In this document: piece after piece, positions 2,499-51,463 of the stretch
Layout of the letters: every line of letters starts with the position of its first letter
Position numbering within the stretch: the first letter of the stretch is position 1
Program-made: the position numbers and the translations under genes
Origin: Folioceros fuciformis
Lineage: Eukaryota
Direction: 5' to 3'
NCBI GenBank assembly: GCA_049999805.1
Contig: JBNGIO010006342.1
Coordinates: 227,778-279,240, forward strand
DNA length: 51,463 nt
The notes under the pieces: model-generated
The model's database searches: none
Told to the model about the DNA's origin: nothing
What the model saw: the letters and a program-made list of their open reading frames with translations, nothing else

Positions 2499-4460
2499 NN
2501 NNNNNNNNAATTTGTCAATTCTGCAAGGAATGTTGGTAGTTACTAGTAAAACTTTACTTAACGTTGTTCCTAAGCCCGAGTGCTCTCTTTGCTCTTTATT
2601 CCCCCATGACCAACCCCTTGCCCCTTCTATGCTCCCAAGTGCACCAACCCAAACCTAGGTCCCTGCCCTTCTCTTGATGATATTAGTTTTTTTTAGCATG
2701 AACTTGACACAAATACTATCTTCCTCTCAAAATTTGTNNNNNNNNNNTTTTAGCATGAACTTGACACAAATACTATCTTCCTCTCAAAATTTGTAATATA
2801 TGGTTTTGAGAAAAATGAAGTTTTTTCTTCACAAAAAAACGTGTTAAAAGCCTACACCATGCAGCAAGTTAAAGTTTTTGGTTGGTATAAGTCCCATATG
2901 AAGAAGGTAAATGTTTGCTTGATATAAGATATTTTTTTTAATGATTTAGAAGAATATGATACTTTGTTCATTTTAAAGTCCATGGTGCCACATTTATGGT
3001 TGTATATAATCATACAATACAAACTAGAAGATGAATCCCACTCAATACAAACAACGAAAAGATCCCAATCAGAAGAAAAAGCAAAAAGATCCCTGTCAAG
3101 TCCCATGTCTAACAAAGTCAAGTTATAACATACTAAAATTATCTATAGAGGATATGAGTCAAGTCCTATGTTCAACAAAGTCAAGTTATCACATAAAAAA
3201 GTTATCTATAAAGGATACGACACTTTGTTCGTTTCAAGAGTCCATAGTGTCATGTTTATGATTTATATAATAGTATAATACTAGCATCAAAAAGATCAAG
3301 ACACATTCCAATTCTATTTACAACATAGTCTCCTCTAGCGTATATCAGGTTCATTAAATGCTATCACCATACTTATGCGATACTAAGATAATGCATTATA
3401 ACCTAATAAATAAAAAATACCGAAATTTTCTGATTTAATGGTGTGACCGTACATGTGCATTATAATCTAATAAATGAAATACATCGAGTTTTTCTGATTC
3501 GGTTTTCCATTCCAATACCCCTGCCCTTTCAGAGAGGAGGAACGGCGACAACCTGCCGCCCCGAGGTTGTAGTGGTGGAATCTGTGGCCCCAATAGGTCT
3601 ACTACCCAGGAAGTAGGGCTTCAGAGCATTGACCGATACTGAGCTGTTTGGTGCCCGACAGTCATGCATGGTGAACTGACAAGTTACAATGATTCTTGTT
3701 CATCCTCGTAGAAAGCTTGAGAGGAAACTCAACGCGCACCGGCAGAGTAGAAAGCCCAAGGTATAGTGATGCTGGCAGGCATTGATGTCAGACTCTTCTC
3801 CCCAATGAAGACTATAGTCAACCAGTGTTGAGTGCGCAAACTCCACTCCTGGACGACGAGTAGTCCAGCTTGTCGGTTATTGGTGATGTCAGTACCAGGA
3901 TTGAAGGATTCTGGTGAAACACCTCTCAAAAATCGGTTGCATTTGGGAATCTTGAGCTGAGAAAATGCATCTTCCACAGGGGTGTAGGGCTGCCTAGCTA
4001 CGTGGTTACCTTGTAAACAGACTCCGATTTGCAGAACTCTCTGCGTGAGAAATGCTGGGTGTCAAGCTGCAGGCTGACGCTTGGGACAACATCAAGGTCC
4101 GTGGACGACCCCGGGTGTTTTGCAGGCTGAGTTTGGTGTCACAGGAAGCTGTGGTTAATTCATTTCAGGAAGCTAGAGCAGAATGTATGTCCGTTTTGCA
4201 GCCCCCCGAGTCTACGGCAGCGGTCCAAAAAATTCGTCCACATAGGGTTGAACTTTCGCATCACCGGCAGTGTGTGGCTAGATATGGCCAGGGAGCCACC
4301 ACTAGCTGGGAACACCTAATGATCACCTGTGCAAGCTTTGCAGTTTGCGACGGGTGATGGTTGGAGGCCGTCCGAGGAAACTTGCAGGGTCACCTGCAGA
4401 GGACACAGTGGGGTGAGGAATGCATGTACATGTGCTGGCATTCACTTCGCCGGCGACAGA

Positions 4461-6588
4461 TCAAAGGTCTGTACAAAGGAAATCTCTGTTCCTGACCGGC
4501 AATCTCGTTGTCGCTGAGCCGTACAACCGCGCTTTCGCATTCTTCGCCTGTTGGACGAGACAAGAACCCGACTCCAAGGTGAGAACCTGTTTAGTCGTGC
4601 ACTTTTGAACTCCAATAAAAGACTATGTTGTGGGCGGGAAAGAAGAAGAGACCTGCTCGTCCCAGTTGGTGCAGATAGTGATGAGAAGCAGGGAAATCAT
4701 CTGCGTGGCGACCCCGCCGAGCATCCCCATCCACAGCCCCTGCCCCAACATGAGGTTAGCATGAAGGGATCGACCAGTACAAGGGTAGATACAAGATAGG
4801 ACTGCACATGGCAGTGGAATCGAAAAGTGGTGCAGGATGTCTCACCCTTCCGTTGAGGTGGTACACAAACGCCAAAGTGATGGCAGCAGGCAGGCCCACA
4901 ACGTAGTACGCTCCCAGATTTGCAAAGGCCCCGATAGCCTGCAACCCGCTTCCCCTAGTCACCCCTGTAGGCCCACGGCATATCAAGTCTAGAGCGAGTT
5001 CCAGCACCAAATGAAAAGCACAAGTTTGAAGGTCTGAGAGCAGGGCAGCACCTGCACAGACAGCCTGGATGCCATCCATGATTGTCAAGGCTGCTAGAAA
5101 CGGCATCATGGTCGCTACATAGGCAACCACCTCCTCCTCGTTGCTGAACACCCAGCCCAAGACATTGCGGACCGAGAAGAGGGTAGCGGAAATCGTTATC
5201 GCAGATGCGCCTGCCAGCATCAAGGATATGACTACTGCAAACTTGGCTGCACTCGGACGTCCCGCTCCCAATTCATTTGAAATTCGCGTGCTGCAAAAGG
5301 TGGGGGACGGGTGGGGCCGGGTCGGCAGTGTCAAGTAACAGTCTGCCAGACTCAGAATGTAATCCGCGCAGCAACTCCTCTCACCTGGCGGATGTGCTGA
5401 GCCCACATGGAATCATATATACGAGGGTGACAGTGTTCATGCTATCATTGAGAGAAGCCGACGTTAATCACATTTGGTGTCATCAACACTGGAATGAACC
5501 ATCGACAAGCAGAGGACGATGTGAGGAGGACGAACCAAATAGAGAGAGCAGATAGCTCGAGCTGGGGGTTTGGCAACAGCCCTGATAGAATGACCAATAG
5601 CTCGAAAGACCACCATGACAAGCTGCCACAAACCACACCAAAATGGGCAAGCAAATTATTTTTAGCGCACAGTTACGAAGTTATGAATGCCGCACGTTTC
5701 CCACCTACCAGACCATCACAACAGATGGCACAGCCAGCTTGAAGAATCCACCAAAATCGTGTAGGGCATCTCTGGAAAATCCAGTCCAAGTCCTAGTGCA
5801 AGCGGGTGCAAATTTGATGTAGAGAGCGATGAGGAGGGCATTGATCCAGGTTGAAACGCAGGAAGCCACTGCTGCCCCCCGGTAGCCCACACCCAGTTTG
5901 AAAATCAAGAGCCAACAGAGAAGGACGTGCAGGGCCGTGGTGATAGCAGACGAAACCAGCATGGGAGTAACTATGCTCTGTGTCTGAAGGAATCTCTGCA
6001 TCGGCTGAATTCCTGCCCAGGCGTACAGAATAGGCACGAGCCATCGGGCGTACTCCCCAGCCTTGGCAGAGATTTCAGCATCCTGCCCCACCAGCCTCAG
6101 CAGCGAGCCCATGTTGATCCAAAGCAGAGTGACCACCAGGGCCGTGGCGAACAGCAACACCATCCCCCTTTGCATGAACACCCCAAGCATGCGGTACTGC
6201 TTGGCACCGTACGCCTGCCCGCACAGAGTCTCCAACGCGCTTGCCAGGCCGATCTGCAATGCCAGCGCCAATTTCAGGTTACCAGGCAGCCAGCAATCGA
6301 GCCGAAGAAAAAACGCAGCACCAGCACCCGTACCATGACGCTCAATCCTGAGACTGTCGCGAAGGACGTCGCAATGGAAGCGCTTGCAAGCGAGAGCTCG
6401 TCCAAGTGACCCACGAACATGACGGAAATGGTGGCAGGGGAGAACTGGCAAAAGTTGACGCCGATCATGGGAGCCGCCATGGCGAGCTGCCTCTTCACCT
6501 CCACCCACACAGGCGATGCAGCCTGGACCTCCACCTCCGTTCCTGAGCCCTCGGGCCGGAACAGCGGCGCTGCGAGCTCGTCCGCCAT
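4461..6588 (-). CDS. MATE/DTX-family efflux transporter
   Basis: GT-AG exons 6588-6334, 6253-5709, 5622-5536, 5441-5385, 5290-5052, 4964-4846, 4739-4653 and 4547-4461, including the 87/57/239/119/87-bp series familiar from plant MATEs. Motifs: 'SVMFVGHL', '[14 protein letters not shown]', 'RFLQTQS', 'CLSWWSFE', '[11 protein letters not shown]', '[12 protein letters not shown]', 'GLWMG'. An alternative last exon ending near 4316 is possible. Confidence 0.93.
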
Positions 6589-7387
6589 AGCCCGATTCGA
6601 ATCTCAGCTGGATGGAAGCTGCAGAAGCAGCAATGCTAGAGGCTTCGAGGAAGCATTTCCAGCTGCGCTACTAGAAATGCTTCGCGAGCCGCCTCTGGGA
6701 GGGAATACGATCGTCGCGTCGATGTCACTCGACCTTCGAAGTTTTTGCGACGCAAGGAGCCAAACAGACGCGACATAACACTAGGATACTCTTCGTTCTT
6801 TATGTCGCTTCACGCTACAGCGTCCTTGGCAGATAGACCCACTCCTGATTCTACGAGACCCTTGAAGACATTTTCTGGGCTAAATCTGTACTTTACAACT
6901 GTCCGCCGTTTTATTGTGCTATGCTTACATCGGTGGGAAGTTCTGTGCAGGCCACGGCATCAACATTTTTCAGCCACCAGTCCACTCTTGCTTGTTCGAT
7001 AAGTTATCACGGTGGGATTTGTCTGGTGACTTGGTAACGAGTGACAAAATGCTATCCTGTTATTTCACCATTTCTTTTGATGGGCAGGTTCTATCAAGAC
7101 CTGTGTCAGTGCTTTGGTACTCGTCACCTCGTTGCCTCACTCCAGCTTCTGTGGCCCTTCAGCTCCTCACAGCTCCAGTTCTCCTGCACTTGTTACAATC
7201 CCTGCCTTCACTGCCAATCAGGGCTGCCGACAAGCAGTCGTTCCCTCTACAGACTGCCTCAAATGTACTTCAACTTCGCGGCATTCACTTCTGTTTTCAT
7301 CGGGCATATGCAGATTTGGCAGTCTTGCTTGGCTTCATAGCCACATTTCGCTCGAATCACTCAAAGAAACATGCATCATCGGGGCCC

Positions 7388-9571
7388 TCAACATGCCCAG
7401 AAGGTGTGCACCCGTCCCTCCAAGTCAGCCCAACAGCTATGGCCCGGCGGCTTCCATGCCCCATTTCTCTTCCGCTCCACATGCATCTCCTGCGCCTCCT
7501 CCCACATCTGGGAGGCAGCATATATATTGGACATCAACACGTATGATGTCGAGTCTTTGCTATTGAGTTTGGTTGCGTCATCGAAAGCAAGCCGTCCCAC
7601 CTGCTTGTCTCTCCACTTTTGACAAGCACCCAAGAGGGTGGACCAGACTGCAGCATCAGGCTGTACATGCATTGTCCTGGCCACTTCCAGAGCCTCGTCC
7701 ACTTGTCCTGCCCGACCCAGGAGGTCCACCATGCATGTGTAGTGCTCTACAGTGGGAGTCAGGCCATAGTTCTTGCTCATAGCATTGAAGTACTCCCGCC
7801 CCCTGTCTACTAGACCCACATGGCTGCATGCCGTTAACAAACTGAGGAACACAACGCTGTCTGGCTGCGTACCGGTCTCTTTCATTCTGTCAAACAAGCC
7901 ACAGACTGCTTCATTGTCTCCTTGGCGGGCGTATCCTGCAATCAGTGCATTCCATGTGAAAACATCTGGTTTAGGCAAGGCATCGAACACCTGCTGTGCG
8001 TCCACCATGCTCCCCGATTTGGCGTACATGTCTATCAAACTGGTTCCTACAGTCACATCTGTTTCAAGCCCCTGGTTTTTTATTTGTTCATGAAGCTGCC
8101 GTCCCACATTCAGAGCTGCCACACTTCCACATGCCTGCAGGAGGCACAAGAATGTGACAGAGTCGGGTGCCGCAATGCCTTCTTGTTGCATACTTCTGTA
8201 TAGGTGAAGGGCTTCCCGACCCATGTTCTGCTGGGAGTATCCTGCTATCAGAGAGGTCCATGCCACCGCATCCTTCCGAGGCCCCAGTCGTTCAAACACT
8301 CTGCGAGCATCCTCTAGGCTGCCACACTTTACATACATGTTTATCAAGCTGTTGACTACAGAGTCAAGAGCTTGAAGCCCTTGTTCTACAATCTGCGCGT
8401 GAAACTGCTTCCCCTTCTCAAGGGCCGGGGTGCCAACACTTGCACACGCCTGCAGGAGGCACACAAATGTCACAGAATCTGGTGCAATGATTCTTTCCTG
8501 CTGCATACGGCTGTAAGAACAAAAAGCTTCCTCAGCCATGCCCTGCTGAGAATATCCAGCTATCATGGAGTTCCATGTCACCACATTTTTATGCCCAAGG
8601 GCATCAAACACTCTCTTGGCATCCTCCAAGCTGCCACACTTGGCATACATGTCCACCAGGCTAGTACAAACGAAGGAATCAAGCCCAACTCCACTGGCCA
8701 ACACATAGGCATGCACCTCCTGTCCAGTTTCCAGGTCTGCTTCCCTTGCGCAGGCCTGCAGAGTTGCGACAAACACATGCCCACTTGGCTTCACACCAGA
8801 CCTGCACATCTGCCGATACAGCTCTATTGCCTGCTTGGGTTGACCGTGCCTAACATGTGCCGAAATGATAGCAGACCAGGTGAAGACATCCGGTTGTGCA
8901 ACCACGCTGAACACATCCATCGCTTCTTGCAACCTGGCATGAGAAGCATACATCCGCAGGAGGTGGTTGCACAAGCATGCATCTGACTCGTACCCCCTCT
9001 CCAAGGCAAGTGCATGAACTCGGCGGCCCAGAACAAGCTCCTCGTCACCCACACATCGCTTCAGCACAGCACAAAAGAGAGAAATGGAAACTCGATAGCC
9101 TGTGCGCAGCCGACCTTCCAGAACCTCAACAGCCTCAGCGACCCGTCCCTGCTCACATAGTTCCATTCCCATTTCGGCCATCAAGCCCGACCGCCTGCCA
9201 CAGCCATCATCAATCGGCGACCTCGACGGACGACGACCCATCTCCATCTCCATCTCCATATCCAGAGCAGCCAGCTGCTCATCCACCCAAGCTGGCTTGT
9301 GCAAGCTGTTTAACCAGAGGACCTCGTGGGAATTCTTGCGCCGGAAGTCAGGCGAGCGGGAACTCTTTTTGAGCTCCCTGTTATCCCACCACAGAGTATG
9401 TTCCATGAAGAACTGCCGCCACAAGAGCTCCTGCCTACGACCCTCGACGGAACCACCTCCCAAAACCAAACATTTTCCTCCACCTCCTGCCTCGCTTGCA
9501 AAAATGCGGCACCTCGCATCTCTACCCGCCGGGCCACGGGAGGGCAGTCCTGCCCCCACCATCATCTCCAT
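7388..9571 (-). CDS. Intronless PLS-class PPR protein (about 15 motifs + E1/E2 + PG box, no DYW deaminase) with an N-terminal OSB-type PDF motif
   Basis: Repeated P ('VTWNSMIAGY'), L ('TFVCLLQAC') and S ('SLVDMYAKCGSLEDA') motifs; L2 'LLTACSHVGLVD'; S2 'EHYTCMVDLLGRAG'; E1 'VWSTLLGAC'; E2 'YVLMSNIY'; ends 'KPPGHSCWADLEGRVHTFWAC*'. Residues about 48-104 read 'ELLWRQFF..HTLWWDNR..K..RSPDFRRK...EVLWL....PAWV..QL'. Confidence 0.95.
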   Translation of the reverse strand: MEMMVGAGLPSRGPAGRDARCRIFASEAGGGGKCLVLGGGSVEGRRQELLWRQFFMEHTLWWDNRELKKSSRSPDFRRKNSHEVLWLNSLHKPAWVDEQLAALDMEMEMEMGRRPSRSPIDDGCGRRSGLMAEMGMELCEQGRVAEAVEVLEGRLRTGYRVSISLFCAVLKRCVGDEELVLGRRVHALALERGYESDACLCNHLLRMYASHARLQEAMDVFSVVAQPDVFTWSAIISAHVRHGQPKQAIELYRQMCRSGVKPSGHVFVATLQACAREADLETGQEVHAYVLASGVGLDSFVCTSLVDMYAKCGSLEDAKRVFDALGHKNVVTWNSMIAGYSQQGMAEEAFCSYSRMQQERIIAPDSVTFVCLLQACASVGTPALEKGKQFHAQIVEQGLQALDSVVNSLINMYVKCGSLEDARRVFERLGPRKDAVAWTSLIAGYSQQNMGREALHLYRSMQQEGIAAPDSVTFLCLLQACGSVAALNVGRQLHEQIKNQGLETDVTVGTSLIDMYAKSGSMVDAQQVFDALPKPDVFTWNALIAGYARQGDNEAVCGLFDRMKETGTQPDSVVFLSLLTACSHVGLVDRGREYFNAMSKNYGLTPTVEHYTCMVDLLGRAGQVDEALEVARTMHVQPDAAVWSTLLGACQKWRDKQVGRLAFDDATKLNSKDSTSYVLMSNIYAASQMWEEAQEMHVERKRNGAWKPPGHSCWADLEGRVHTFWAC

Positions 9572-10071
9572 CCCTTCCTGTCGGGCATCCCGAATCTCTG
9601 ATGAATCCGAGTACCATCGATTTCCACCATGAGGGGAGGGGAGTGGAAACCCACCACGAGAAAACCAATACTGTTACTACGTTCAACCAGATGCCATGGT
9701 GAGGTAGAGGCTGAAGAAGGCAGTCTGCGTGGTGCTCATCTCCATTTCTCCACAAGACAGTCCGCGCCAGAGGCGCTTCCTGACGAAGCAAAAACTCTAC
9801 ACTTCTCGATAGGACAGACTGTGTAAGGCAATCCGGTTGCTTCGAGAGATGGATAAAACTAGGCTTCAGTTTCGTTGCATCCAGTTTACACACTTCACAG
9901 GACGGCAGATGCCGACAAGCACACATCATAAGGTATAAGAACGGCTGTCGCTCATCGTGAAATGAAGTTCCGCGAGTCCTCGGCCGTAAGGTAGTTACGT
10001 TCTACAAAATAAGCTGGGAAGCGATGTACAGATTTGCAGGCAGAAGAGGCTACCGCGGGGGGAGAGCGTTC

Positions 10072-12069
10072 TCAAAGGACACTCTCGATGATGAGTATAA
10101 GCACAGCGCCGAATGTGAGGGCTGTTACCAGCAGGATAGAGAGGAAGGGCGCAGAAGTAAAGAGGCGGTCAGAGAGGGAAGCCAGCTTCTGCACGTCCGC
10201 TGACGAGTAGTCTGCCAGATAAGTGTTGTAGTCGATGAGGAGGGGGATAAAAATGAAGGGAACGAGTAGAAGGAGGCCGAACACAGTGGAGGCCACCATG
10301 GTTCTCTGAGTATCTGCAGGAAGGTTACCGAAACCAGCAGCAATGAACGCTGCGATGACAAACGCGGATGAGATCATGAGACTGAAAGACGTCACACCCA
10401 CCTTAAGCCGCAGCCGGAAAACCTCGTCCTCAACAAAACGGTGACTCTTGGGAAGCACACTCTGGATGCCTGAGACAAGGGTGTAGATGGCGAAGAAGAA
10501 CGAGACGCTGTTGAAGGCCCAGAAGATCTTGACAGCTGCAGCCAGCTGCGTATCACTGCCGCTCAGGGGAGGCTTCAGGAATCCAGCGAACGTGACCGCT
10601 GCCACGATAGCTGCCCCCACCAGAAACGCATTGGTAGAGTTGAGAAACAGCTGCCTATCCTTAGACAATCCGTCCAAATATCTCTGCACGTCTCCCCGAC
10701 TCGACAGCAGCTCCTTCACGTCCTCATAGAAATCTCCCTTCAGCTCCTCCCCCTTGTCCCACAGGTAGTGCAGCATGGTTTTCTTCTCCCAGTTCTTGGT
10801 GTTGGCCCTCAGCCTGGACTGTCCCAGCAGGTCCTTGACCATTCCCTTCCTGTCCAGCTTGAACGCCAGCGTAAGAGCCGTCTCCTGGTTGCTCTCCAGA
10901 TTCAAGTTCACCCTCGGCTCCCCTACCAGAGCCCCAAACTCCCGCTCCTGCCCTAACTCCACGGCATACAGCAACGGCGTCTTTCCGCTCCTGTCCAGGC
11001 AATTCACATCAACCCTCGGATGTGCTGCCAGCTTTCCAGTGATGAGCGAAAACCCCCGCTCCACCACATAATGCAAGGCTGTCTTCCCATCCACATCCAC
11101 AGCGTTCACATCCGTCTTCCCCGACGCCAGCAGCTCGTTCACCACCCCGAGATGATTTTCCTGCGCAGCCAGATGCAACGCCGTCCCTCCCTTGGGCAAC
11201 TTCGGCCAGTCGTCCCCCTCCCTGTCCGCCAGCCGCGGCCGCGGCAGCAGCTTCCACGAAACCTCTCCCGTCTTCTGCACGTTCGGCACTGGCACGTAGT
11301 CGTGCCGCCCGATCTCCGCATTGGCCTGCACCCCGTCGTGCGCGAGCAGGATCCGCACAACCTCCGCATGATTCCCCAGCCAAGCCGCCAGATGCAGCGG
11401 CATCAGCTTGTACACCGAATCCACAGCTCCCACCGCAATCCCCGGCACAGCCAGGAGCTCCTTCACCACCGCAACATGCCCCTTCCTGCACCCGTAATGC
11501 AGCGGCGTTCGCTTGAAGCAATCCTCCGCATTCACGAATCCCGGCACTCCCCCGGGCCCCCTCTCCTTATACGCGGCCAGCAGCATCCTCACCACATCTC
11601 CGTGCCCGGCATCCGCCGCGGCATGCAGAGCGGTGAAATTCTCCGCCGTGCAGGCCTCCAGATCCACCTCCTCCTTCCACGACAAGAGCTGATCCACCAC
11701 AGCACCGTGCCCTCCGAACGCCGCCAGATGCAAAGCCGTGATGCTCCCCTTGGCCTTGGCGTTCACGTTCACCCGCTCCTGTTCCCGGAGCGCTCTCACC
11801 ACCTCCGTCTTCCCCGCCTGCGCCGCCACATGGAGCACTGTCCGGCTCCAGTCGTCCTCGTCGAAGAGGAGCACGCTGGGGCAGTAGTGCAGAATGGTCC
11901 TCACCACCTCCACTCGATTCCTCTCCGCCGCCCGGTGCAGAGCGACGACTCGGAAATCCGAGGTGCGCTTGAACTCCACCTCCGCGCTGTTCTTGGGATT
12001 CTTCAGGAACTCCTTCACCTTGGAGACGTCTCCATCCTCCGCCGCAGCTACGAAACCCGCATTGTCCAT
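10072..12069 (-). CDS. Intronless ankyrin-repeat protein with a C-terminal PGG-like transmembrane domain (ACD6/ITN1-like architecture)
   Basis: ATG at 12069 (MDNAGF). More than 10 ankyrin repeats ('TALHLAA', 'TPLHYG', 'GKTPLLYAV'), then 'NAFLVGAAIVAAVTFAGFLKPPLSG', 'FWAFNSVSFFFA' and further hydrophobic helices. Confidence 0.92.
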   Translation of the reverse strand: MDNAGFVAAAEDGDVSKVKEFLKNPKNSAEVEFKRTSDFRVVALHRAAERNRVEVVRTILHYCPSVLLFDEDDWSRTVLHVAAQAGKTEVVRALREQERVNVNAKAKGSITALHLAAFGGHGAVVDQLLSWKEEVDLEACTAENFTALHAAADAGHGDVVRMLLAAYKERGPGGVPGFVNAEDCFKRTPLHYGCRKGHVAVVKELLAVPGIAVGAVDSVYKLMPLHLAAWLGNHAEVVRILLAHDGVQANAEIGRHDYVPVPNVQKTGEVSWKLLPRPRLADREGDDWPKLPKGGTALHLAAQENHLGVVNELLASGKTDVNAVDVDGKTALHYVVERGFSLITGKLAAHPRVDVNCLDRSGKTPLLYAVELGQEREFGALVGEPRVNLNLESNQETALTLAFKLDRKGMVKDLLGQSRLRANTKNWEKKTMLHYLWDKGEELKGDFYEDVKELLSSRGDVQRYLDGLSKDRQLFLNSTNAFLVGAAIVAAVTFAGFLKPPLSGSDTQLAAAVKIFWAFNSVSFFFAIYTLVSGIQSVLPKSHRFVEDEVFRLRLKVGVTSFSLMISSAFVIAAFIAAGFGNLPADTQRTMVASTVFGLLLLVPFIFIPLLIDYNTYLADYSSADVQKLASLSDRLFTSAPFLSILLVTALTFGAVLILIIESVL

Positions 12070-13030
12070 GGCTCCTGCTCCTCCTTCACCCTGGATTGCC
12101 CGCTTTCGGAGTCGGATCTTACGTTCCCGCACGCTTCCCGAGCGTCCTTGCGACGCAAGCAAACTCCGTGGGTCGTGAATTCATGCGAGCTCACGCGCCC
12201 ATCCAAGGACGGGACGATTTGTCCATTGCAAATGTGGCAGCCAAGTCACCGGGAATCGTGAACCGTGCAGGGGCCCGGGGCTTGTCTCGACTGCTGAGTG
12301 CGGGGAAGAGAGCGCAGATCATCGTCATCTGCAATTGAAAAATCTCATCTGCAAGCGCAACCAGGCCGTGCGTTCGGGCACCCTGTACGTCACAGGAGCG
12401 TTGTGTTGGCGTTTTGCACAGCTGTTGCTCCTTGCATCCACGGTTTCTGAACAGAGACGTCTCACCTACACCCTGAACCGTCTGCCCTTGGCAAGGAGAA
12501 ACGTACATATCAAGGAAAATGTTTGGCGCTCCCACACCTTACTGACCACGATCTCTAGGAGAAGAGAGGTTCGAACCCGGGAACGCATGGTTTATGTAAA
12601 GGCATGTTTCTCCACACTTATGCTGGAACGTGAAACAGGAGCACAAATGTAATGAAAATGTAATGCTGTTAACAGCGATGACTTCGCAAGCCGCCAGGCG
12701 CCAGAATCATCAACAAGAAGAAGAAGTCTCCAATCGGACCAAGGCTGTCTCTGCCTCGCTCATGTGAAGAGGCGCGAGGGCACAGGCAGCATCTACAAGT
12801 GCGCACCGCGTTCACCTCTCTGGGAAGAGACGTTTGCCTGTCGCCAGCGGCCTGTTGTTGGAAACGCAAAGGGAGAGGAGAAAACAAAGTAAGGTCCGGG
12901 AAAAACCAGTTTGCAACAAGCTCGGCAAGGCAGGGACCTGGGCCACCCTCAGGAGCGCATGCACAATGTCGAAAGCACAGCAATTGGCGGGGAAATTTGT
13001 GGGAAGGGTGGTTTCTCGTGCAGTGGACAC

Positions 13031-24258: not shown

Positions 24259-27200
24259 TCAAGAGGAGAACACAAGATCTCGTCCCCTTGTTCGCCTTCG
24301 GTCTCGTGGGGCAGGAGTATAAACTTCTGGAGACGAGGTCTCACTATCCACAGGTGAAACAGTTCGTTTCTTCCTTCCTGCACCAGAATGTGGGTGCTTA
24401 AGCGATCTCTGCGTTTTGCAAAAGCAATCAAACACTCTAAGCCAAAGCAGCAAAAGAGAACCCACGTTTTACAGTTTTCCTCTTGGTCGCGGGTGTAGGT
24501 ACGGATGCGGAGAACGCCTCGTCACCACCGTTTGGCTCGACAGTCAGATGTAAATTTTCTGCACAAACATTACGCACGCAAAATCAGACCGCCCATATGA
24601 TCAAGGACCAAAAATGCGTAGCGATTGTGAACAAGGTGGCACCTAACAAAATCCCAAGCTCCTCATCAGTGAGGCCACAGTCAGGAGTCGTGTCTAACGC
24701 CTTGAGGCGACCGGCATAAATCTGCAACTCGCGAAGCAAAGTCTTGGTCACAAGCTTGTCGTCCGACAAGTTCTCAAGCGCGCTGCACACAGAGTCTTGT
24801 CAGCATGTGACGCTGCTGCATGGTCAGTTTCAGACAGGCTTCAGAGAGAGAAGGACCTCTGCACCAGCGAGTGCATGAGCTTGATGAGCTTCTGCTGGCT
24901 TGGTCGAAATTGAAGGTCAAACGTCACTCGATAAAGCAAGGCTACATAGAGCCTGACGGAAGGGAATTTTGGCTGTTGCAGGACGACTTTCACCTGGACA
25001 GTCGCAGGCGGAAAGATTTTCGTGACTGAGTTGATAACAAAGAGTTCAGGATAGCTGGAGACGCAACAGGCAACAAAAGAGAATCCCACCCACAAACCTC
25101 ATTAGCTATTCGCAAAGCCAGATCCTCATGGCCCTCGTCAGGAGGACCATTGTCAACGGCCTCACTGTGCTCCGTGAAGTCATCTGTAGGCTTCTCAGCT
25201 GGCTTCTTAATTTCTTGAAGCATCATCTGTAGCATGAACCGTGACACGGTCGTCGCTCGTTGTCTCGAGAGAAGGGAGTGACCTCCCACCCACACACAAC
25301 GAACAACCGGGATGAAAGCTCTGGCCACACAAAGCTGTAAAACAGAAATTTCGTCAGTTGGTACGCGAATGTGGATAATCAACCCGCTGTGCAGTAGAGT
25401 TTTGAGAAGTCACCTTATGATCAGCAGAAACTACTGTATAATTCTGGAAGAACACAGAGAGACACTGATTCAACCTGCAAAGCACTTTCCTGTCATTTAA
25501 TAGAAAAGAATCTGCTGAAGAGAGGACGAGAACAGACCAGGTACATGGGCAAACCTGCGTGTCTCGTTGTTGAAGTAAATTAGCAATAACTTTCTGAGGA
25601 TGGCGGCCTCATCGACGAGGCTATCGCCTACTGTTTTGCTTCTGATTAAAAGCTTGGCGAATCCTTCAGCTACTAGTCCTCTTGGGCTCTCGGCATCGGC
25701 AATAGGAGATAGTCTGTCTTCGGCGAAGTCTTCAAAGTGTGCATCTCCATCCAGCCAAGACGCCAGTATATCCATCACAGGCTTGCCGACGTGGCCACTT
25801 CCCTCCAATTCCGATGCCTGAACCTCAACACCTTCCATACATTTCGGTCCATGGCAGATGATCAGATCAAATGCTGCCTTTGTCGCCATGTTGCAGACTG
25901 GTTGATGTGCACTGTGAAGAGCTGACCGCAATGCCTGAACAAGCTTCACGCTGGGCACCATTTCTAGTGGACAGAACAGTCCCAAGCACCTAAGGCCGGC
26001 CCTTTGCACCTCAGGGTGGATGTGCTTCGCCTGCATTGGAGATCGGCAGTGAGTCGGGACATGTAACAGCAGAAATGATGCAAGACAAGATACGCAAAGA
26101 TGTATACTGTCGATCTTACTGCGGAACTAAGCAGAGCATCTGAGAGCTCTGAAGGCTCAATTGCTGATCCGATAAGTTGTTTTGTCGACGTGATGCTCGT
26201 AAGAAGGAGGCCAGTTAATGCCAGACAATGAAGCCATTGCATAACATTTGCATCACCTTCACGACATGGCCTTCCGTGATCTGCCACAGCCTCAATAAGC
26301 ACCTTGACCCACTCTCCAGGAGAAGCATGAACACTTCTGCCGAATCCCGCAATTGCATCCTGCCAATCCTTTTCTCCTCCAACGCTCAAACCATCCCCAA
26401 GGATATCCACAACGTCAGGACTATCGGGTTTCTCAAGCAGACTACGCAGGAACAAAGCTGCTACCTGACGGCTTACAGCATCGGTAAAATCGAGCAGCTT
26501 CCCAATCTTCAAGAGCTGTTGAGAGGCAAAGCGATAGTGCTGCCCTGCATCATAGACATGGAACAGTTGTCAAGGTGTAAATAGCTAGCCCAAGAGCGGC
26601 TCTCATGAAGAGCTAGCTTGATACAAAATGGTGAACATCTTCAAAGTCCTTCCTACAGATACCGGCAAGTATATGTCTCTCGACCACCGACACATAGTCA
26701 GCTACGGTTGGCGGTAAAATTTTCTCCAGAGCCTCTTGTTTGAGAGCAGCATTCTCAGCATCCACGACAGCCTTTACACATCCTGAAGCTGCTGCCTCAG
26801 AGCTTCTAGTCTGCATGGACAAGGGTCAGAAGTAGTGTGCGGGATGGAGGCGGCTATGCAATCCACAAAAAGCAACCCTTAACGAAGTACCTGTTCTGCA
26901 TCATGGACGAAAAAACACCACATCCTCCAATACAGGGCTTCTTCTGCTTCCAGAAGATGGACTCGGCCACCGTCTTTTCCATCTGCCACGTACGCATGTT
27001 ACAACGACAAACCTACTAGAACCCCCCGTGCAGCTATCCTTCAATAGAAAGAAAGGTTGTATAGATTGAGAAAGCAAGTATCACCTGGTCCGAACACCTT
27101 CATGGGACCTTCATGGGATCCTAGCTGGACGACCTCAGCTTGGAGAAGCTCTGCCATGATGGTCTCTCCAACCCTGGCATGAGTCTCCACGTCCATGAGC

Positions 27201-28311
27201 TTCAACAAGCTCAACACATCTCCCTGGCAGTCCCTCTGCAGCCAGGTCTTGAGCATTTTCAGGGACTCAGCTTTCACAGCAGGCACTCTATCTGCAAGGC
27301 CTCGTTCAAGAACCAAGGTCCTCTGTGAAATGCTGCAAGCGCAGCATGCGGGTGGTTATGCTCTCTCTCTAATGTCCCCTTGAGAGAACCTGCCTAGCTT
27401 CCAACCGTGAACCAACCTGAGGCTGTTGATGGGGAAATCCTGCCCAAGCTTGAAGAAGGCAGCTTTCCTGACAGAATCATGGACATCGGCCGTCCTCTCA
27501 ACAACTTGGGGGATGGTACAGCTAATTGGCGGAATGGACAAGACAACCCATCTTCTCACGTCCTGGTGAAAACCGAAATCGTATATCAGCTTTGCAACCT
27601 TATACCCCCTTTTTACAAACCACCAGACAAGAGCCATGACATGGTCCACACCACTAACCACATTCTCGTCCAAATCCAGAGTTCGTCTATACTGTTCCAA
27701 AATCCCCCAATTCTCCACCATCTCCAAATCTGTGGCCACAGCAAGCCTCGCCAGCGATCGAGCTGCAAAAGCTCGCACAGCCGCCACCCTGTCCTGCATA
27801 CGACGGAGCATACCCGCCACCACCCGATCCAAGGTATCGTCGCTTAGCATCGCGTCGTCCTGTATCCTCTGCATTATCTGCCACCACATTTTCCCGGCTT
27901 AAGACTCCAAATCAAATTAGGCAACTGGAACACCCAAGCCTCCCGCCATCTCACCTCATGCACCATTTGACATGCCCTGAAGCGGACAGTCTTGTCAACG
28001 GCCTCGGCCCACTCTAACAGCAAGCCCAGAAAATCCTCCGCAAACGCATCGCATTCCGACGCGTCCGCATCCCGGTACACCGCAAAATGCGCGCAGAATC
28101 GCACAGCCTGCTCCACCGCAGGCTTCCTTGCCGCCACCAGAAAGAGCGGCTGCAAACATCGGGCCCAGTCCTCCAGAAACCCGTCATTCTGTCTTCTGCA
28201 CTGCACCAGCTCCTTCACCAGCCTGGTATGCTGCGACACTGACGAAATCTGAGCCTCGCCCAGAACCCTAGCGATAGCGAAGGCAGCGCCAGCAGCCTCC
28301 CCGCCCACCAT
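24259..28311 (-). CDS. NCAPG: Condensin I subunit CAP-G (HEAT-repeat)
   Basis: Multi-exon gene. Motifs 'AVDKTVRFRACQ', 'RMQDRVAAVR', 'ERTADVHDSVRKAAF', 'LERGLADR', 'LDFTDAVSR', 'HPEVQRAGLRCLGLF', 'AEGFAKLL'. The last exon ends 'RGRDLVFSS*' at 24259 (terminal exon less certain). Confidence 0.92.
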
Positions 28312-30342: not shown

Positions 30343-32173
30343 ATGGGGTCACAGGCGCTGATGCACGTTGCGGTCGCAGGGAGCCTGGCTGCGTCGTGCT
30401 CCTCCCACCGGTCGAGCGTCAGCTTCGGTACCTGGTTGTCTGCTTTTCGCGGTAAGCAGAGTGTTGCTCGTACCATGGACGCCTTCAAACGGTCTCTGGC
30501 TCTAGTGTGGGGCTGCCTGTGTGTCGCAGTTTGACGACTTCTCACCTTCTGGATACTAACTTTGATTGTGAAGGAGGTGAGGGGAATTCGGTGAATGCAG
30601 CGTTGGAAAAGTTTGTTGTCTAGCTGAAAGGGCGTGGTTGGCTGAGGTGACAGAATGAATTTTCATTCTGTTGTCATCGACCGTGGTTGTGATAACAGTG
30701 CCTTACTCTGAGGGCGTGCATGCATCCTGCATTCCTTACCGATTTCGCTGCTTCTGAAAGATAAGAAAGATGAGGGGCATCATTTGTGGCAACGCATTCT
30801 TGTCTCTGAAACGAGCTGACAGACCGTGTGTGGCTTTGTAGAAGCAAGGACGCGGCGCTTGGTGGTTACCGCGGAAACGGGAGGTCCTTTTGCATTTGGC
30901 CCCAAGTATGATGCAGGAGACTCAAGTTTCGTCCGAAGAGCAGTTGCTGTAAGCGTGTGCTTGTTTAGCGCATGAGTTGAAGCTGCAAGGTGTGTCTGAG
31001 GGGGCGAGTGACCTCTTTTGCTTGTGCGGGTTTTAGGTGAAAGGGGAAGCTGCCAGTTCTACATCAGTAAAGGCAGGGTAGGTTTTATTCCGAGAAAGAA
31101 ATTTGAGGTGACCTGTTTGCTTGTGTGGTCGCTTGCTTTGGAGAATTGTGGGTGGTAGACAACAGCGCTGTTCACTGAAAGGGTTGCATGGTTCGAACAG
31201 TCATGAACTACTTATGTTTGAGGCTCTGCGCGAGGGTCTGGAGGAGGAGATGGAGAGGGATCCTACCGTGTGCGTTATGGGAGAGGATGTCGGCCACTAC
31301 GGAGGCTCGTACAAGGTGACAAAGGGATTTGCTGAAAAGTTTGGAGACTGGCGTGTGTTGGACACTCCCATTGCTGAAAACTCCTTCACTGGCATGGCTA
31401 TCGGGGCAGCAATGACCGGGTTGCGGCCGGTTATCGAGGGCATGAACATGGGCTTTTTGTTGCTGGCTTACAACCAAATAGCCAACAACTGTGGCATGCT
31501 GCACTACACATCGGGAGGACAGTTCAGAATCCCTGTGGTTATAAGGGGCCCCGGGGGTGTGGGCAGACAGCTTGGAGCGGAGCACTCACAGCGGTTGGAG
31601 TCCTACTTTCAATCGGTTCCTGGATTACAGATGGTGGCCTGCTCCACGCCCTACAATGCCAAGGGTCTCATGAAGGCGGCCATCCGCAGTGAGAACCCGG
31701 TTATTCTCTTCGAGCATGTGCTGCTGTACAACCTGAAGGAGAGGATCCCTGATGAGGAATACGTCTGTTGTTTGGAGGAAGCAGAGCTGGTGCGTCCTGG
31801 TGAGGATATCACCATCCTGACCTACTCTCGGATGCGGCACCATGTGTTACAGGCAGCCAAGACTCTGGTGAACAAGGGCTACGATCCGGAGATCATAGAT
31901 ATCCGGTCGCTGAAGCCCTTCGATCTGCACACCATTGGGAACTCAGTGAAGAAGACACACAAAGTCCTAATAGTGGAGGAGTGCATGAGAACCGGTGGTA
32001 TCGGTGCGAGTCTCCGGGCTGCCATCATGGAAAACTTCTTCGACTATCTGGATGGACCTATTGGTTGTCTATCATCGCAGGATGTGCCCACACCTTACTC
32101 CGGTCCGTTGGAAGAGCTGACTGTCGTGCAGCCACATCAGATTGTGACTGCGGTGGAAAGCTTATGCCAATGA
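30343..32173 (+). CDS. pdhB: Pyruvate dehydrogenase E1 beta subunit, plastid type
   Basis: Three short exons encode a transit-peptide-like leader; a long exon from 31201 gives '[17 protein letters not shown]', '[14 protein letters not shown]', '[11 protein letters not shown]', '[13 protein letters not shown]', 'SSQDVPTPY'. Confidence 0.96.
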
Positions 32174-48313: not shown

Positions 48314-51300
48314 ACTTAAGCTGACCAGGTCCTCCTGGCCGATCTATCTCTGAGCTTGGGAAGCTTGCATCTAAGCCCGCAAGTGAGGGAAGTGATGGCA
48401 AAAGGCTGCGGGTTCCCTAGTCGTAGCACTGTCGGGTTCACCTGTCCAGGACACGAGGAAGTCTGTCACACAACGAGAACGGAGCTGGCGATCGCGGCGC
48501 TGGAGGATACAGTGGGGCTGGTGAGGGCCAAAACTTGGCAGCTGGGCTAGGGTTTTTGAACCAGAGCAGTCTGGAACGGCAGGAGTTGCCAGGGGGNNNN
48601 NNNNNNNNNNNNNNNNNNNNNNNNNNNNNNNNNNNNNNNNNNNNNNNNNNNNNNNNNNNNNNNNNNNNNNNNNNNNNNNNNNNNNNNNNNNNNNNNTGGC
48701 AGCGGGTGGTGGGCGGGAGATCACCGGTTTGAGCATGGAGACGTGAAACGTCCTGCAGAGACACCAATCAGCGGGAAGGTCGAGTTGATCTGCCTGGACA
48801 CTGTGAAGGGTCCAGCGTACTGGTAGGATAGCTTATCCCGTGACTGGATCAGAGCTGGGTAGCGGTGAGGCTTCACACGAAGCCACACTTGTTGGCCGAC
48901 GCTGTAGCAGACTGCCCGGCGATGCTTGTTGGCTGTTTTACAGTATCTGTCCCGGGTAGCGAGGAGTTTCTCCTTCGCCAACTTGACCTCATGCTAGATA
49001 TCCTCTGCAACCTCACCTGGTGATGGTAGAGTTTCTCCATAGAGTAGCTTGAACGGGGCCACTCCTGTAGCAACGTGCTTCGACGAGTTGTAGACATACT
49101 CCAGCACATGGAGGAGTTCTTCCCACCTTGTTTGTTTCTCATGGGGAGGTGACGAAGCATATCTTCCAGGACCTGGTTCTGTTTCTCTATTTGGCCGTTT
49201 GTCTCTGGGTAATACGCTGACGACAAGTTTTGCTTGATGCCTAGGGTTTCCATGAAGGTTTTCATGAACCCTGAAGTGAACTTAGGATCCCGGTCAGAGA
49301 CGATGTCTTCTGGGGCTCCATGCAACATGAAGATTTCCCGGACAAAGACTCCAACCAGCTTGGATGCTGTGATGGTGGAGGTCACAGGAACAAAGTGGCA
49401 GACCTTGGAGAACTTGTCAGTGACCACCTAGATACTATCTTTTCCAGATCGGGTACGTGGCAGGTGAGTGATGAAATCCATAGCAATTGACTTGAACCGT
49501 CCACTTGGAATTTGTAGGGGTAACAGCAGGCCCGGCGTCTTCTGATGGCTGGGCTTGGCTTGCTGACAGGACTACTAGGAGCGCACCCATTCGATGCACT
49601 CAGCGCGTATCGCTTCCCAATGGAAGTGTTCCTTGACCTTGGCATATGTCTTGTCAATGCCCAAGTGGCCCGAAATTGGTGAATCATGCATGTTATGTAG
49701 GATGGCCTATTTCAACTCCGTGAGTTGTGAAGGGATGACCAGTCTCCCCTTTTGATACACACAAGCATCCATGAGTAAATACAACTGGGTAAGTGCTGTA
49801 GGGACCCCTGTCTGTGCATCTGTCAATAGCTGTCTGTATAGTTTCGACAAGACTGGGTCATGGGGAATTCCATCCCAGACTAACTGGATTGTTTGGGTCT
49901 GGGGTTCTCATGAGGGTGCAGGCACGCCGACTCAAGGCATCTGCAACCACATTAGTTGAGCCTGCTACATACTGGATTTCCAGATGGTAGTCTGCTAGAG
50001 CTTTAGCCCATCGTCACTGCCGAGCATTCAGGTTGGGTTGAGAGAAGAAATGCTGCAAGGAGTGGTGGTCGGTATGACACACCACTTTCTGCCCCAGGAG
50101 GTAATGTCGCCATACCTTCAGGCATGTGTAATGGCCAACATCTCCTTATCATGCACTGGGTAGTTTAGCTATGCTCCTTGCAACTTCCTGCTTTCGTAGG
50201 CGATTGCCCTTCCTTGCTGGGACAGAACTGCCCCTATGGCATAATCTGATGCGTATGTGTAAATGGTGTATGGCATGTGAGGATATGCCACTCCCAGTAT
50301 TGGCGCCGAGCCAAGGGCCTGCTTCAGCTGCTCAAAAGCTACGACAGCCTCGGCTCCCAACTGGATGGGCTTGTTGGTGGAGTGCCGAAGGGCATCCGTC
50401 AGGGGAACAGCGATCCTGCTGAATCCCTTGATAAAGCGTTTGTAGAAGCCGGCCATACCTAGGTACCCTCTGAGTTGGGTCATGTCTTGTGGTAAGGGCC
50501 AGTTCATCACTGCGCTGACCTTACGTGTGTCAACCTGGATGCCCTTTGCATTGATCACATATCCCATGTATTCACACTTTTCTCTCATGAAGACACACTT
50601 GCTTCTCTTGCCGAACAGTGTGTTGACCGGTAGCAAGTCCAGCACCTTCCTAACCAGCTGGAGATGGGTTTCAGGGTCAGGGGTTTAGATGAGAATGTCA
50701 TCCAGGAAGACTTCAACGCCATGTCCCAGCAAGGATCGCAGCACTTCCTGCATGAGACATTGGAAGGTGGCAGGGGCATTGGTAAGACCAAACGGCATTA
50801 CCCTGAATTTGAAATGGTCATGTCGAGTTCGAAAGGCCGTTTTGTGTTCATCTTCTGACCTGATCCGGATCTGGTGGAAGCCAGATATGAGATCAATCTT
50901 GGTGAACAGCTTGGCTCCATGCAACTGGTCGAGGATCTCGTCGATCCTTGGCATCTGGTAGACGTTTCTCACTGTGGCTCGATTGAGCCTTCGATAGCCT
51001 ATGCACAGCCACCATCCTCCATCTGGTTTGGCAACTAAGAGGACTGGAGCACCAAAGGGTGACACAGAAGGTTGTACAAAACCCTTCTGTAAGAACTCAT
51101 CAACTTGTTTTTTGATCTCTTCGTTTTCCATTGCAGATGTCCTATAGGGTTGAACACTAACCAATTTGTGGCCTGGCAGCAGCTCAATGGCATGTTCTAC
51201 GGTTCGTCGAGGAGGGAGCTCCGTGGGTTCAGCAAACACATCTTGATACTCCTGGAGCAGGTCCTTCATGGGCTGTGGGAGCTGGTCCTCGTGAACCTTG

Positions 51301-51463
51301 GCTTCTGCGGCCCTTGACTTCGCAGTGCCTTCTAAGGGAAGCACCTTCTTGATCTTTGCTATGGACAGGAATCTGTCCATGGCAGTTGCTTTATTGAGAG
51401 CAGAGACAACAAACAATTGCTTGTCAGGGAGGTACTGTTCCCCCTGCATGACGTATGTCTGAT

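What the first reader, a model, noticed from the sequence alone, without database searches (positions are those of the whole stretch)
9260..9430. OSB-type PDF ssDNA-binding motif fused to an RNA-editing-type PLS PPR protein
Seen: in one intronless ORF, 'ELLWRQFFMEHTLWWDNRELKKSSRSPDFRRKNSHEVLWLNSLHKPAWVDEQL' precedes the PPR array. Established: this matches the PDF motif of plant organellar single-stranded DNA-binding (OSB) proteins, which carries their ssDNA binding, while PLS-E PPRs are organellar RNA-editing specificity factors. Inference: a hybrid that could tether a sequence-specific RNA reader to nucleoid ssDNA or R-loops for co-transcriptional editing, or recruit partners through the PDF motif. 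I do not know a characterised example of this architecture, but cannot rule out that it is annotated elsewhere.
Basis: partly seen in the sequence, partly recalled or inferred. Interest (0 to 1): 0.78.

Follow-up and report, generated by a model that had tools for sequence, protein, structure and literature searches.

The report
OSB-type PDF motif on a PPR protein
A plant gene for an RNA-reading PPR protein really does carry, at its front end, the small nucleic-acid-binding "PDF" module otherwise known from organellar ssDNA-binding proteins, and the same unreported combination turns up in dozens of genes of ferns, clubmosses, mosses and liverworts.

Summary
One intronless minus-strand ORF (7388-9571, 727 aa) encodes a disordered N-terminus, one PDF motif (aa 48-100 = 9272-9430), a short linker, 15 PPR motifs and E1/E2 motifs, with no DYW deaminase. 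A profile built only from proteins that their sources name OSB1/2/3 hits this ORF at 60.8 bits, E 5.8e-18. It hits nothing else among the window's 1134 six-frame ORFs.

The gene is not a one-off. I found 61 other proteins with one to three PDF motifs in front of a PLS PPR array. Every named one comes from a non-seed land plant: Diphasiastrum, Adiantum, Pteridium, Sphagnum or Calypogeia. PPR-linked PDF motifs cluster together in a tree, which fits a single old domain fusion.

No paper in eight full-text searches links PDF motifs with PPR proteins. The databases call these proteins "hypothetical" or plain PPR proteins.

The mechanism is inferred. The PDF module most likely acts as a sequence-independent single-strand nucleic-acid grip on the 5' side of the PPR-bound RNA. 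I rate this a new variant of a known kind, of moderate to high interest.

The parts
7388..9571 (-). Whole coding sequence (727 codons plus stop) of the PDF-PPR gene, with no intron
   Evidence: ORF list. Pfam finds PPR families and the E motif. AF2 full-length model has mean pLDDT 89.0. Contigs of run X1 match 6889-7747, 7727-8249 and 9270-12315 with 0 differences and no joint.
9446..9571 (-). N-terminal presequence, aa 1-42: Gly/Arg/Ala-rich and predicted disordered. Presumed organelle-targeting peptide (inferred).
   Evidence: pLDDT is below 50 for aa 1-40. Composition: R+K 0.12, D+E 0.07, G 0.26. No targeting predictor was available.
9245..9445 (-). PDF motif domain, aa 43-109 as aligned to the profile.
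   Evidence: 78.6 bits, E 1.5e-23. 60.8 bits, E 5.8e-18 against the profile from named OSB proteins only. Predicted as a confident helix-strand-strand-helix mini-domain, with 10-residue pLDDT blocks of 85-94.
9197..9244 (-). Low-complexity, disordered linker (aa 110-125) between the PDF domain and the PPR solenoid
   Evidence: pLDDT is below 50 for aa 113-127.
7655..9196 (-). PPR array, aa 126-639: 15 helix-pair motifs of 31-37 aa in a P-L-S rhythm (five triplets)
   Evidence: Pfam PPR_2 2.6e-76 and PPR 9.3e-63. Helix pairs in the AF2 model. Segmentation gives motif lengths of 37, 35, 31, 35, 35, 31, 36, 37, 32, 36, 35, 31, 35, 36, 32.
7391..7654 (-). E1 and E2 motifs, then a 17-residue stub that ends where a DYW domain would begin. 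No DYW deaminase.
   Evidence: Pfam E_motif PF20431, residues 655-712, model positions 3-60 of 63, 44 bits. No DYW hit. No DYW-like frame downstream of the stop.

Best explanation
Shown. The locus is an intact, intronless nuclear gene for a PLS-class, E-subgroup PPR protein. Between a short disordered presequence and the PPR solenoid, its N-terminus carries one true PDF motif of the kind that defines plant OSB proteins. It belongs to a conserved and so far undescribed 'PDF-PPR' subfamily with one to three PDF motifs always N-terminal to the PPR array. I saw this subfamily in liverwort, Sphagnum mosses, a lycophyte (dozens of paralogues) and ferns. The PDF motifs of these proteins cluster together beside the OSB PDF motifs.

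Inferred. One old domain-shuffling event placed an OSB PDF module in front of an RNA-editing-type PPR gene, and the combination then spread by gene duplication. The PPR tract reads about 15 nucleotides of an organellar transcript. The N-terminus of the protein faces the 5' end of the RNA, and the E1/E2 end faces the target C, which sits 4 nt downstream of the base read by the last PPR motif. That geometry is established PPR knowledge, recalled here. The PDF module hangs on a roughly 15-residue flexible linker, so it would sit just 5' of the recognised element.

Most likely mechanism (about 0.45 of my belief). The PDF module binds single-stranded nucleic acid without sequence preference through its conserved Trp/Phe and Lys/Arg residues. 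That adds affinity and keeps the RNA unfolded for the PPR tract. It would be an in-cis helper comparable to the extra RNA-binding domains of other PPR fusions.

Because the protein lacks a DYW deaminase, any editing would need a deaminase supplied in trans.
For: Identity of the motif: (E 5.8e-18 against a profile from named OSB1/2/3 proteins; many hits named OSB1/2/3).

One ORF, no intron. Contigs of run X1 lack the six short introns of the neighbouring MatE gene, so they look RNA-derived. They cover 9270-12315 and 6889-8249 collinearly with 0 differences.

Recurrence of the architecture:
- 13 of the 150 best motif hits carry PPRs.
- 23 of the 120 best full-length PPR homologues carry the motif.
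- 25 of 87 further profile hits carry both.
- Motif positions always precede the first PPR alignment, with one exception: P0301 has a second, internal motif.

Taxa by source names: Diphasiastrum complanatum, Adiantum capillus-veneris, A. nelumboides, Pteridium aquilinum (transcript ORFs), Sphagnum compactum, S. fallax, S. jensenii and Calypogeia fissa.

Single cluster: all 44 PPR-linked motif rows fall in one 46-row group. The label needs 3 changes against a mean of 37.2 in shuffles, and 0 of 500 shuffles were as low.

A folded, retained domain: pLDDT 85-94 over aa 41-111, flanked by disordered segments. Ten columns are invariant across 15 PPR-linked motifs. Many homologues have 40-139 Ser/Thr/Arg-rich residues upstream of the motif, as expected if a transit peptide precedes it.

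Nucleic-acid binding of PDF motifs: passages of PMC6963530, PMC4166229 and PMC13393729, all citing Zaegel 2006.
Against: - No biochemical datum exists for any PPR-linked PDF motif.
- The reviews say AtOSB1/2 prefer ssDNA to RNA (PMC4166229 passage). That favours the DNA-tether rival over an RNA helper role.
- The presequence is short and Gly-rich with three acidic residues. That is not a textbook transit peptide, and organelle targeting is unproven.
- The only contig that covers the motif also contains the upstream ankyrin gene, so it does not prove which transcript the motif belongs to. The kind of that run is not on record.
- The cluster of PPR-linked motifs has SH-aLRT 88, which is unstarred. 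It rests on 63 columns and contains two rows from short proteins without a detected PPR part.
- The motif-only AF2 model was mediocre, with pLDDT 71.9.
- The absence from seed plants rests on small, biased lists.
Confidence: 0.55

Rival explanations
1. ssDNA or nucleoid tether. The PDF module keeps its OSB-like preference for ssDNA and anchors the PPR protein to single-stranded stretches of organellar DNA, such as the transcription bubble, R-loops or replication and recombination intermediates. Editing or other RNA processing would then happen co-transcriptionally at the nucleoid.
For: Reviews report that the AtOSB1 PDF motif is sufficient for ssDNA binding and that OSB1/2 prefer ssDNA over dsDNA and RNA (passages of PMC6963530 and PMC4166229). 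The aromatic and basic signature residues are retained in the PPR-linked motifs. Having 1-3 copies parallels the copy-number variation of OSBs (PMC13393729 passages).
Against: There are no data on localisation or DNA binding for any PDF-PPR. The PPR-linked motifs form their own cluster, so their specificity may have shifted. A flexible 15-residue linker places the module next to the bound RNA, where RNA is the nearest ligand (inference).
Confidence: 0.25
2. Protein-protein adaptor. In the PPR context the PDF module recruits a partner, for example a trans-acting DYW deaminase, an OSB/SSB/Whirly protein or another editosome component, and does not bind nucleic acid.
For: This protein and several relatives lack a DYW domain and would need a partner. 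The small helix-strand-strand-helix fold has no structural analogue that would point to a nucleic-acid-binding mode.
Against: DYW-containing members carry the motif too (P0059 and P0141; PF14432 in the precomputed lists of P0180, P0212, P0246, P0251, P0271, P0277, P0284, P0286). The only reported activity of PDF motifs is ssDNA binding (reviews).
Confidence: 0.12
3. The motif is not part of the functional mature protein. It would be either removed with the targeting peptide, or lie in the 5' UTR or the read-through 3' UTR of the upstream ankyrin gene, or the gene would be a decaying pseudogene.
For: The only contig over the motif also spans the upstream ankyrin gene. The presequence is atypical. 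The protein ends abruptly after E2 without a DYW domain.
Against: The frame is open for 727 codons, and every signature residue of a 50-residue motif is kept, at 60-79 bits. The same position and order recur in 61 other proteins of four plant lineages, including fern transcript ORFs. The segment is a confident folded domain between two disordered segments. The only in-frame ATG downstream of the first three Met codons lies inside the motif. E-type ends without DYW are common among relatives.
Confidence: 0.06
4. Chance resemblance or compositional artefact.
For: None beyond the absence of a Pfam model for the motif and the blank results of the word-index and Atlas look-ups.
Against: E 1.5e-23 and 5.8e-18 against two profiles, with every other ORF of the window at E>1. 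507 database hits.
Confidence: 0.01

Closest known systems
[quoted passage not shown] 2006; known here only through reviews PMC6963530 and PMC4166229 and through PMC13393729)
   Same: Shares the ~50-residue PDF motif with all signature residues. The variable copy number of 1-3 in the PDF-PPR subfamily resembles that of OSBs. A presumed organellar presequence lies upstream.
   Different: The OSB order is transit peptide, then an SSB-like OB fold, then C-terminal PDF motifs. Here there is no OB fold (no Pfam SSB hit), the PDF motif is N-terminal, and a PPR-E array follows it. PPR-linked motifs cluster apart from OSB motifs.
PLS-class E-subgroup PPR proteins (organellar C-to-U RNA-editing site-recognition factors)
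   Same: Five P-L-S triplets followed by E1 and E2. Intronless gene. 37-54% identity to PLS PPR proteins of lycophytes, ferns and bryophytes.
   Different: Canonical members have only a targeting peptide before the first PPR motif. This one has a folded PDF domain there. E-only proteins without DYW are (from recall) unusual outside seed plants, where most editing factors carry their own DYW domain.
PPR proteins fused to other nucleic-acid domains (PPR-SMR, PPR4 with an RRM, PRORP with a NYN nuclease) and trans-acting editing helpers (MORF/RIP, ORRM). Named from recall, not from a call.
   Same: The design principle is the same: a sequence-specific PPR tract combined with a second, generic nucleic-acid-binding or catalytic module.
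   Different: The accessory module is different (PDF), sits at the N-terminus, and has not been described in combination with PPRs in any paper my searches reached.

Membership tests
OSB family (organellar ssDNA-binding proteins) | One or more PDF motifs (~50 aa with conserved Pro-Asp-Phe) | tested here: met
   60.8 bits, E 5.8e-18 against a profile of 80 motifs from 23 proteins named OSB1/2/3. 78.6 bits against the wider profile.
OSB family (organellar ssDNA-binding proteins) | Central SSB-like OB-fold domain N-terminal to the PDF motifs | tested here: not met
   No PF00436 or other OB-fold hit at E<=1 in the 727-aa protein. In the AF2 model only 40 disordered residues precede the motif. The protein is therefore not an OSB; it only shares the PDF module.
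OSB family (organellar ssDNA-binding proteins) | Preferential high-affinity ssDNA binding; mitochondrial or plastid location | not testable with these tools
   Needs EMSA and localisation experiments. No targeting predictor was on hand.
PLS-class PPR proteins, E subgroup | Tandem P, L and S type PPR motifs | tested here: met
   PPR_2 2.6e-76, PPR 9.3e-63, PPR_1 8.7e-46. 15 helix pairs with a 35/35/31-type length rhythm.
PLS-class PPR proteins, E subgroup | C-terminal E (E1/E2) motifs | tested here: met
   PF20431 E_motif, 44 bits (cut-off 27.3), model positions 3-60 of 63.
PLS-class PPR proteins, DYW subgroup | C-terminal DYW cytidine-deaminase domain (PF14432) | tested here: not met
   No PF14432 hit. 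The ORF stops 17 residues after E2, and no DYW-like frame lies downstream. Relatives P0059 and P0141 do have it.
PLS-class PPR proteins, E subgroup | Site-specific organellar C-to-U editing function | not testable with these tools
   No organelle genome or transcriptome of this organism is held. The function is inferred from the family.
PDF-PPR subfamily (grouping proposed here) | One to three PDF motifs N-terminal to a PLS PPR array in one polypeptide | tested here: met
   The window protein has its motif at aa 43-109 and PPRs from aa 126. 61 other proteins share the layout. The window motif pairs with that of P0059 at SH-aLRT 96.

The most novel reading that the evidence does not exclude
PDF-PPR proteins are an ancient, land-plant-wide class of organellar RNA-processing or editing factors that carry their own generic single-strand grip. 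In non-seed plants this in-cis module would do what seed plants achieve with trans-acting helpers such as MORF/RIP or ORRM proteins, or it would physically couple RNA editing to the ssDNA of the transcribing nucleoid. Its apparent restriction to bryophytes, lycophytes and ferns would then mark a change in how editosomes are built at the origin of seed plants. That non-seed plants lack MORF/RIP proteins is recalled, not checked here.
Probability: 0.2. Interest if true: 0.8.

Novelty: new variant of a known kind. Interest (0 to 1): 0.6.

Why it matters
PPR editing factors are among the largest gene families in land plants, and they are being engineered as programmable RNA binders and editors. 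An unrecognised, conserved N-terminal nucleic-acid-binding module in dozens of them would matter in three ways.

1. It would change how target affinity and editosome assembly are modelled in bryophytes, lycophytes and ferns. These are the lineages with the heaviest editing.
2. It would give the poorly understood PDF motif a second, independent context in which to study its ligand preference. No solved structure exists.
3. It would offer a small natural add-on domain for designer PPR proteins.

It also shows that OSB censuses based on the PDF motif need to separate out PPR-linked copies. A 2026 survey of 182 OSB genes does not mention PPRs in its main text, and I could not see its supplementary tables.

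Tried and rejected
- Word-index search with residues 40-110 among proteins of 399-1273 aa: 26 candidates, none scored. This was a sensitivity limit, not absence, as one search showed.
- ESM Atlas look-up of residues 40-110: no usable hit.
- Own-genome search: no genome is held for this window. Paralogues in the same organism and its organelle targets could not be examined.
- Earlier findings of this scan: nothing by place, sequence or words.
- Zaegel et al. 2006 (PMC1785405) is not held. All statements about PDF biochemistry come from review passages.
- Sequencing runs: no RNA holder is listed. The kinds of runs X1-X8 are guesses.
- Parts of the PPR array (about 8250-9270) are crowded by contigs of paralogous repeats. 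I could not see a single X1 contig joining the motif to the 3' part of the gene, because table 8 was cut.
- Joints inside 7748-8634 and 9331-9411 have sides of 21-33 letters. I set them aside as repeat or paralogue artefacts, not introns.
- PDB sequence search with the motif profile: best E 0.98, an unrelated CP29 chain.
- Foldseek of the motif-only model against PDB: best E 5.8. That model was only pLDDT 71.9.
- PF26713, which recurs in the precomputed Pfam lists, was considered as a possible PDF model. I rejected it because it is present in hits without the motif (P0171, P0172) and absent from hits with it (P0180, P0251).
- I did not predict a complex: no defined protein partner was in question.
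Full report
**Observation**

The minus strand carries one ATG-to-stop ORF, 7388..9571, of 727 codons. An in-frame stop lies 34 codons upstream of the first ATG. It lies in the same frame as a PPR array, and no intron is needed.

Pfam finds PPR_2 (2.6e-76), PPR (9.3e-63), PPR_1, PPR_3 and the E motif (PF20431, 44 bits, cut-off 27.3, residues 655-712). It finds no DYW deaminase and no family over residues 1-125. The ORF ends 17 residues after E2, and no DYW-like frame follows.

**Is the N-terminal segment a PDF motif?**

phmmer with residues 40-110 against 1.84 billion cluster representatives gave 507 hits at E<=1e-3, 94 at <=1e-10 and 13 at <=1e-30. The best 150 were listed. Many hits have several copies of the motif, up to 13.

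Hit P0033 (E 5.3e-20) represents a 102-member cluster named 'protein OSB1, mitochondrial(-like)' in Populus.

Of 10 non-PPR hits scanned with Pfam, 5 showed the SSB family at E<=0.01, and 2 of these were above its cut-off. One more of a further 10 did as well.

A profile search with 15 PPR-linked motifs found 895 proteins at E<=1e-5. The 120 listed include many named OSB1, OSB2 or OSB3 from angiosperms and Cryptomeria.

I built two profiles.
- The first used 283 motif copies from 136 non-PPR hits, selected with the window motif as query and therefore not independent of it. It scores the window ORF at 78.6 bits, E 1.5e-23. The next best of 1134 six-frame ORFs of the window has E 2.3.
- The second was seeded with the C-terminus of the Populus OSB1-like protein and iterated only over 23 proteins that their sources name OSB1/2/3 (80 copies). 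It scores the ORF at 60.8 bits, domain E 5.8e-18, with the next best at E 1.9.

The alignments show every signature position conserved. The one exception is the Pro before the WW pair, which is His here.

**Anatomy**

AlphaFold2 on a 28-sequence alignment gave mean pLDDT 89.0 and pTM 0.72. The model shows:
- residues 1-40 disordered (pLDDT below 50);
- residues 41-111 as a confident small domain (10-residue blocks 85-94), made of helix 42-56, strands 61-63 and 76-78, and helix 95-111;
- residues 113-127 disordered;
- then 15 helix pairs (PPR motifs), two more pairs (E1, E2) and a terminal hairpin.

Motif lengths follow the P-L-S rhythm. A motif-only model from 15 sequences was weaker, at pLDDT 71.9.

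Neither the motif profile nor that model matched anything solved. The PDB sequence search gave a best E of 0.98, and Foldseek gave a best E of 5.8.

**The architecture recurs**

- Of the 150 best motif hits, 13 also align to the PPR part of the window protein at E<=1e-5. Pfam confirmed PPR families in all 9 of the 13 that I scanned, with DYW domains in 2 of them.
- Of the 120 best full-length homologues of the window protein (2654 at E<=1e-50 among 7999 scored candidates), 23 carry one to three motifs. Three of these have only a truncated motif at the very start.
- Of 87 further proteins returned by the profile search, 25 carry two or three motifs followed by PPRs.

Together that is 61 proteins besides the window's, one of them an isoform of another. 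In all of them the motifs precede the first PPR alignment. One protein (P0301) has a second motif at 678-736 and may be two merged gene models.

Source names place them as follows:
- Diphasiastrum complanatum, the large majority;
- Adiantum capillus-veneris and A. nelumboides;
- Pteridium aquilinum, where the transcriptome ORFs P0065 and P0085 show the fusion in assembled cDNA of another species;
- Sphagnum compactum, S. fallax and S. jensenii;
- the liverwort Calypogeia fissa.

Several others are unnamed.

None of the 13 PPR hits that appear to be seed-plant proteins has the motif. These are 8 with 'Gb_' names, which I take to be Ginkgo, 3 from Cryptomeria, 1 from Saponaria and 1 from Arachis. 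All named seed-plant hits lack PPR families in their precomputed Pfam lists. These lists are small and chosen by similarity, so absence from seed plants is only a lead.

**Origin**

I built a quick maximum-likelihood tree (LG+G4, 63 columns, 134 rows). The rows were all 44 PPR-linked motif copies that span the core, plus a random 90 of 345 non-PPR copies. I dropped copies not spanning profile positions 26-72, and cluster members beyond P0151.

The tree puts all 44 PPR-linked copies in one group of 46 rows (SH-aLRT 88, not starred). The label needs 3 changes against 37.2 on average in shuffles, and 0 of 500 shuffles were as low.

The two intruding rows come from short proteins, a 155-aa Pteridium transcript fragment and a 307-aa protein from a 1024-nt contig. 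These may be truncated PDF-PPRs.

The window motif pairs with that of P0059, an unnamed 753-aa PDF-PPR-DYW protein, at SH-aLRT 96 and 60% identity. One origin is therefore compatible with the data but not proven. The alignment is short, and near-copies inflate the clustering.

**Transcription**

No run is on record as RNA. Run X1 holds 98% of the sampled words. One of its contigs skips six 80-106-nt segments with CT..AC ends, which are GT..AG on the minus strand, in the neighbouring MatE gene. Its contigs therefore look RNA-derived.

X1 contigs match 6889-7747, 7727-8249 and 9270-12315 with 0 differences and without joints. The last of these covers the motif, the start codon and the whole upstream ankyrin gene. 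It therefore shows collinearity and no intron, but it does not show which transcript the motif belongs to.

In a relative (X2), a contig likewise joins 9341-9591 to 9939-11905, with a different spacer between them.

**Is the motif kept in the mature protein?**

This is not directly testable here. Three points argue that it is kept:
- it folds as a domain between two disordered segments;
- it is conserved at 60-79 bits, and the only downstream in-frame ATG lies inside it;
- many homologues have 40-139 residues that are Ser/Thr/Arg-rich and poor in acidic residues ahead of the first motif, as expected for a transit peptide that precedes it.

The window's own 42-residue presequence is Gly-rich with three acidic residues. 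That is atypical.

**Mechanism (inferred)**

PPR tracts bind RNA in parallel, with the N-terminal motifs on the 5' nucleotides. In editing factors the E/DYW end lies over a C that sits 4 nt 3' of the base read by the last S motif. This is established PPR knowledge, recalled here.

A PDF domain on a ~15-residue linker ahead of motif 1 would therefore sit just 5' of a ~15-nt recognition element. Reviews state that the AtOSB1 PDF motif suffices for ssDNA binding and that OSB1/2 prefer ssDNA to dsDNA or RNA (passages of PMC6963530 and PMC4166229). A 2026 survey calls the PDF domain the main ssDNA-binding part (passages of PMC13393729).

I judge the candidate roles as follows:
- a sequence-independent single-strand grip that adds affinity and keeps the RNA open: about 0.45;
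- an ssDNA or nucleoid tether: about 0.25;
- a protein adaptor: about 0.12;
- the remainder goes to 'not in the mature protein', chance, and unforeseen functions.

Reading positions 5 and last of the P and S motifs with the recalled PPR code gives roughly U, A(weak), A, U, U, G, G, U, G for motifs 3, 4, 6, 7, 9, 10, 12, 13 and 15. This is a low-confidence target pattern. Without a DYW domain, the protein would need a deaminase in trans.

**Comparison and membership**

The protein is not an OSB, because the defining OB fold is absent. It shares only the PDF module. It is a PLS-E PPR protein, because the P-L-S motifs and the E motif are met and DYW is not met. It fits a subfamily that I define here by layout, PDF-PPR.

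**Novelty**

Eight full-text searches were run. They found no paper that links PDF motifs or domains with PPR proteins. The one paper holding both terms, PMC6963530, mentions PPRs only for mitochondrial RNA polymerases.

Subscription papers, including the large PPR surveys and Zaegel 2006, are outside the library. A prior mention therefore cannot be excluded.

Database names for these proteins are 'hypothetical protein', 'uncharacterized protein' or 'pentatricopeptide repeat-containing protein'.

**Verdict**

The locus is one member of a conserved but apparently undescribed domain architecture, which I rate as a new variant of a known kind. Interest is 0.6.

Noticed in passing
window 10072-12069 (-): A 665-aa ankyrin-repeat protein (Ank_2 8.2e-53) with a hydrophobic C-terminal part lies only about 500 bp upstream of the PPR start, on the same strand. 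One X1 contig (9270-12315) and one contig of a related organism span both genes. This suggests overlapping or read-through transcripts.
   Followed up: partly
window 4000-6706 (-): A spliced MatE-family transporter gene. One X1 contig skips six introns of 80-106 nt with GT..AG ends on the minus strand. Short introns and short intergenic spacers point to a compact plant genome.
   Followed up: partly
window 31214-32173 (+): A 319-aa ORF with the transketolase pyrimidine-binding and C-terminal domains (1.9e-43, 6e-38). It looks like the beta subunit of a 2-oxoacid dehydrogenase E1.
   Followed up: no
window 50685-51449 (-) and 25497-27889 (-): A reverse-transcriptase fragment (RVT_1, 2.3e-21) sits at the window's end. 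ORF pieces with condensin Cnd3 and HEAT-repeat matches are probably exons of one gene.
   Followed up: no
window 2499, 2738 and 48597: Runs of N begin at these three places. The window holds 120 N in all.
   Followed up: no
proteins P0009, P0013, P0018, P0340: PDF-motif proteins are named from green algae: Sanguina aurantia, Astrephomene gubernaculifera, and records 'PRCOL' and 'Ulvmu1'. The motif therefore reaches into chlorophytes, although the 2026 OSB survey states that Chlamydomonas lacks OSB genes.
   Followed up: no
proteins P0089 and P0301: A Coptis chinensis model joins PDF motifs to a kinesin motor. A 1362-aa Diphasiastrum PPR protein has a second PDF motif at 678-736. Both look like merged neighbouring gene models and not true architectures.
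   Followed up: no
protein P0002: A 1160-aa Kingdonia uniflora protein holds 13 PDF-motif copies and a weak SSB match. This is far more than the up-to-five copies mentioned for OSBs in PMC13393729.
   Followed up: no
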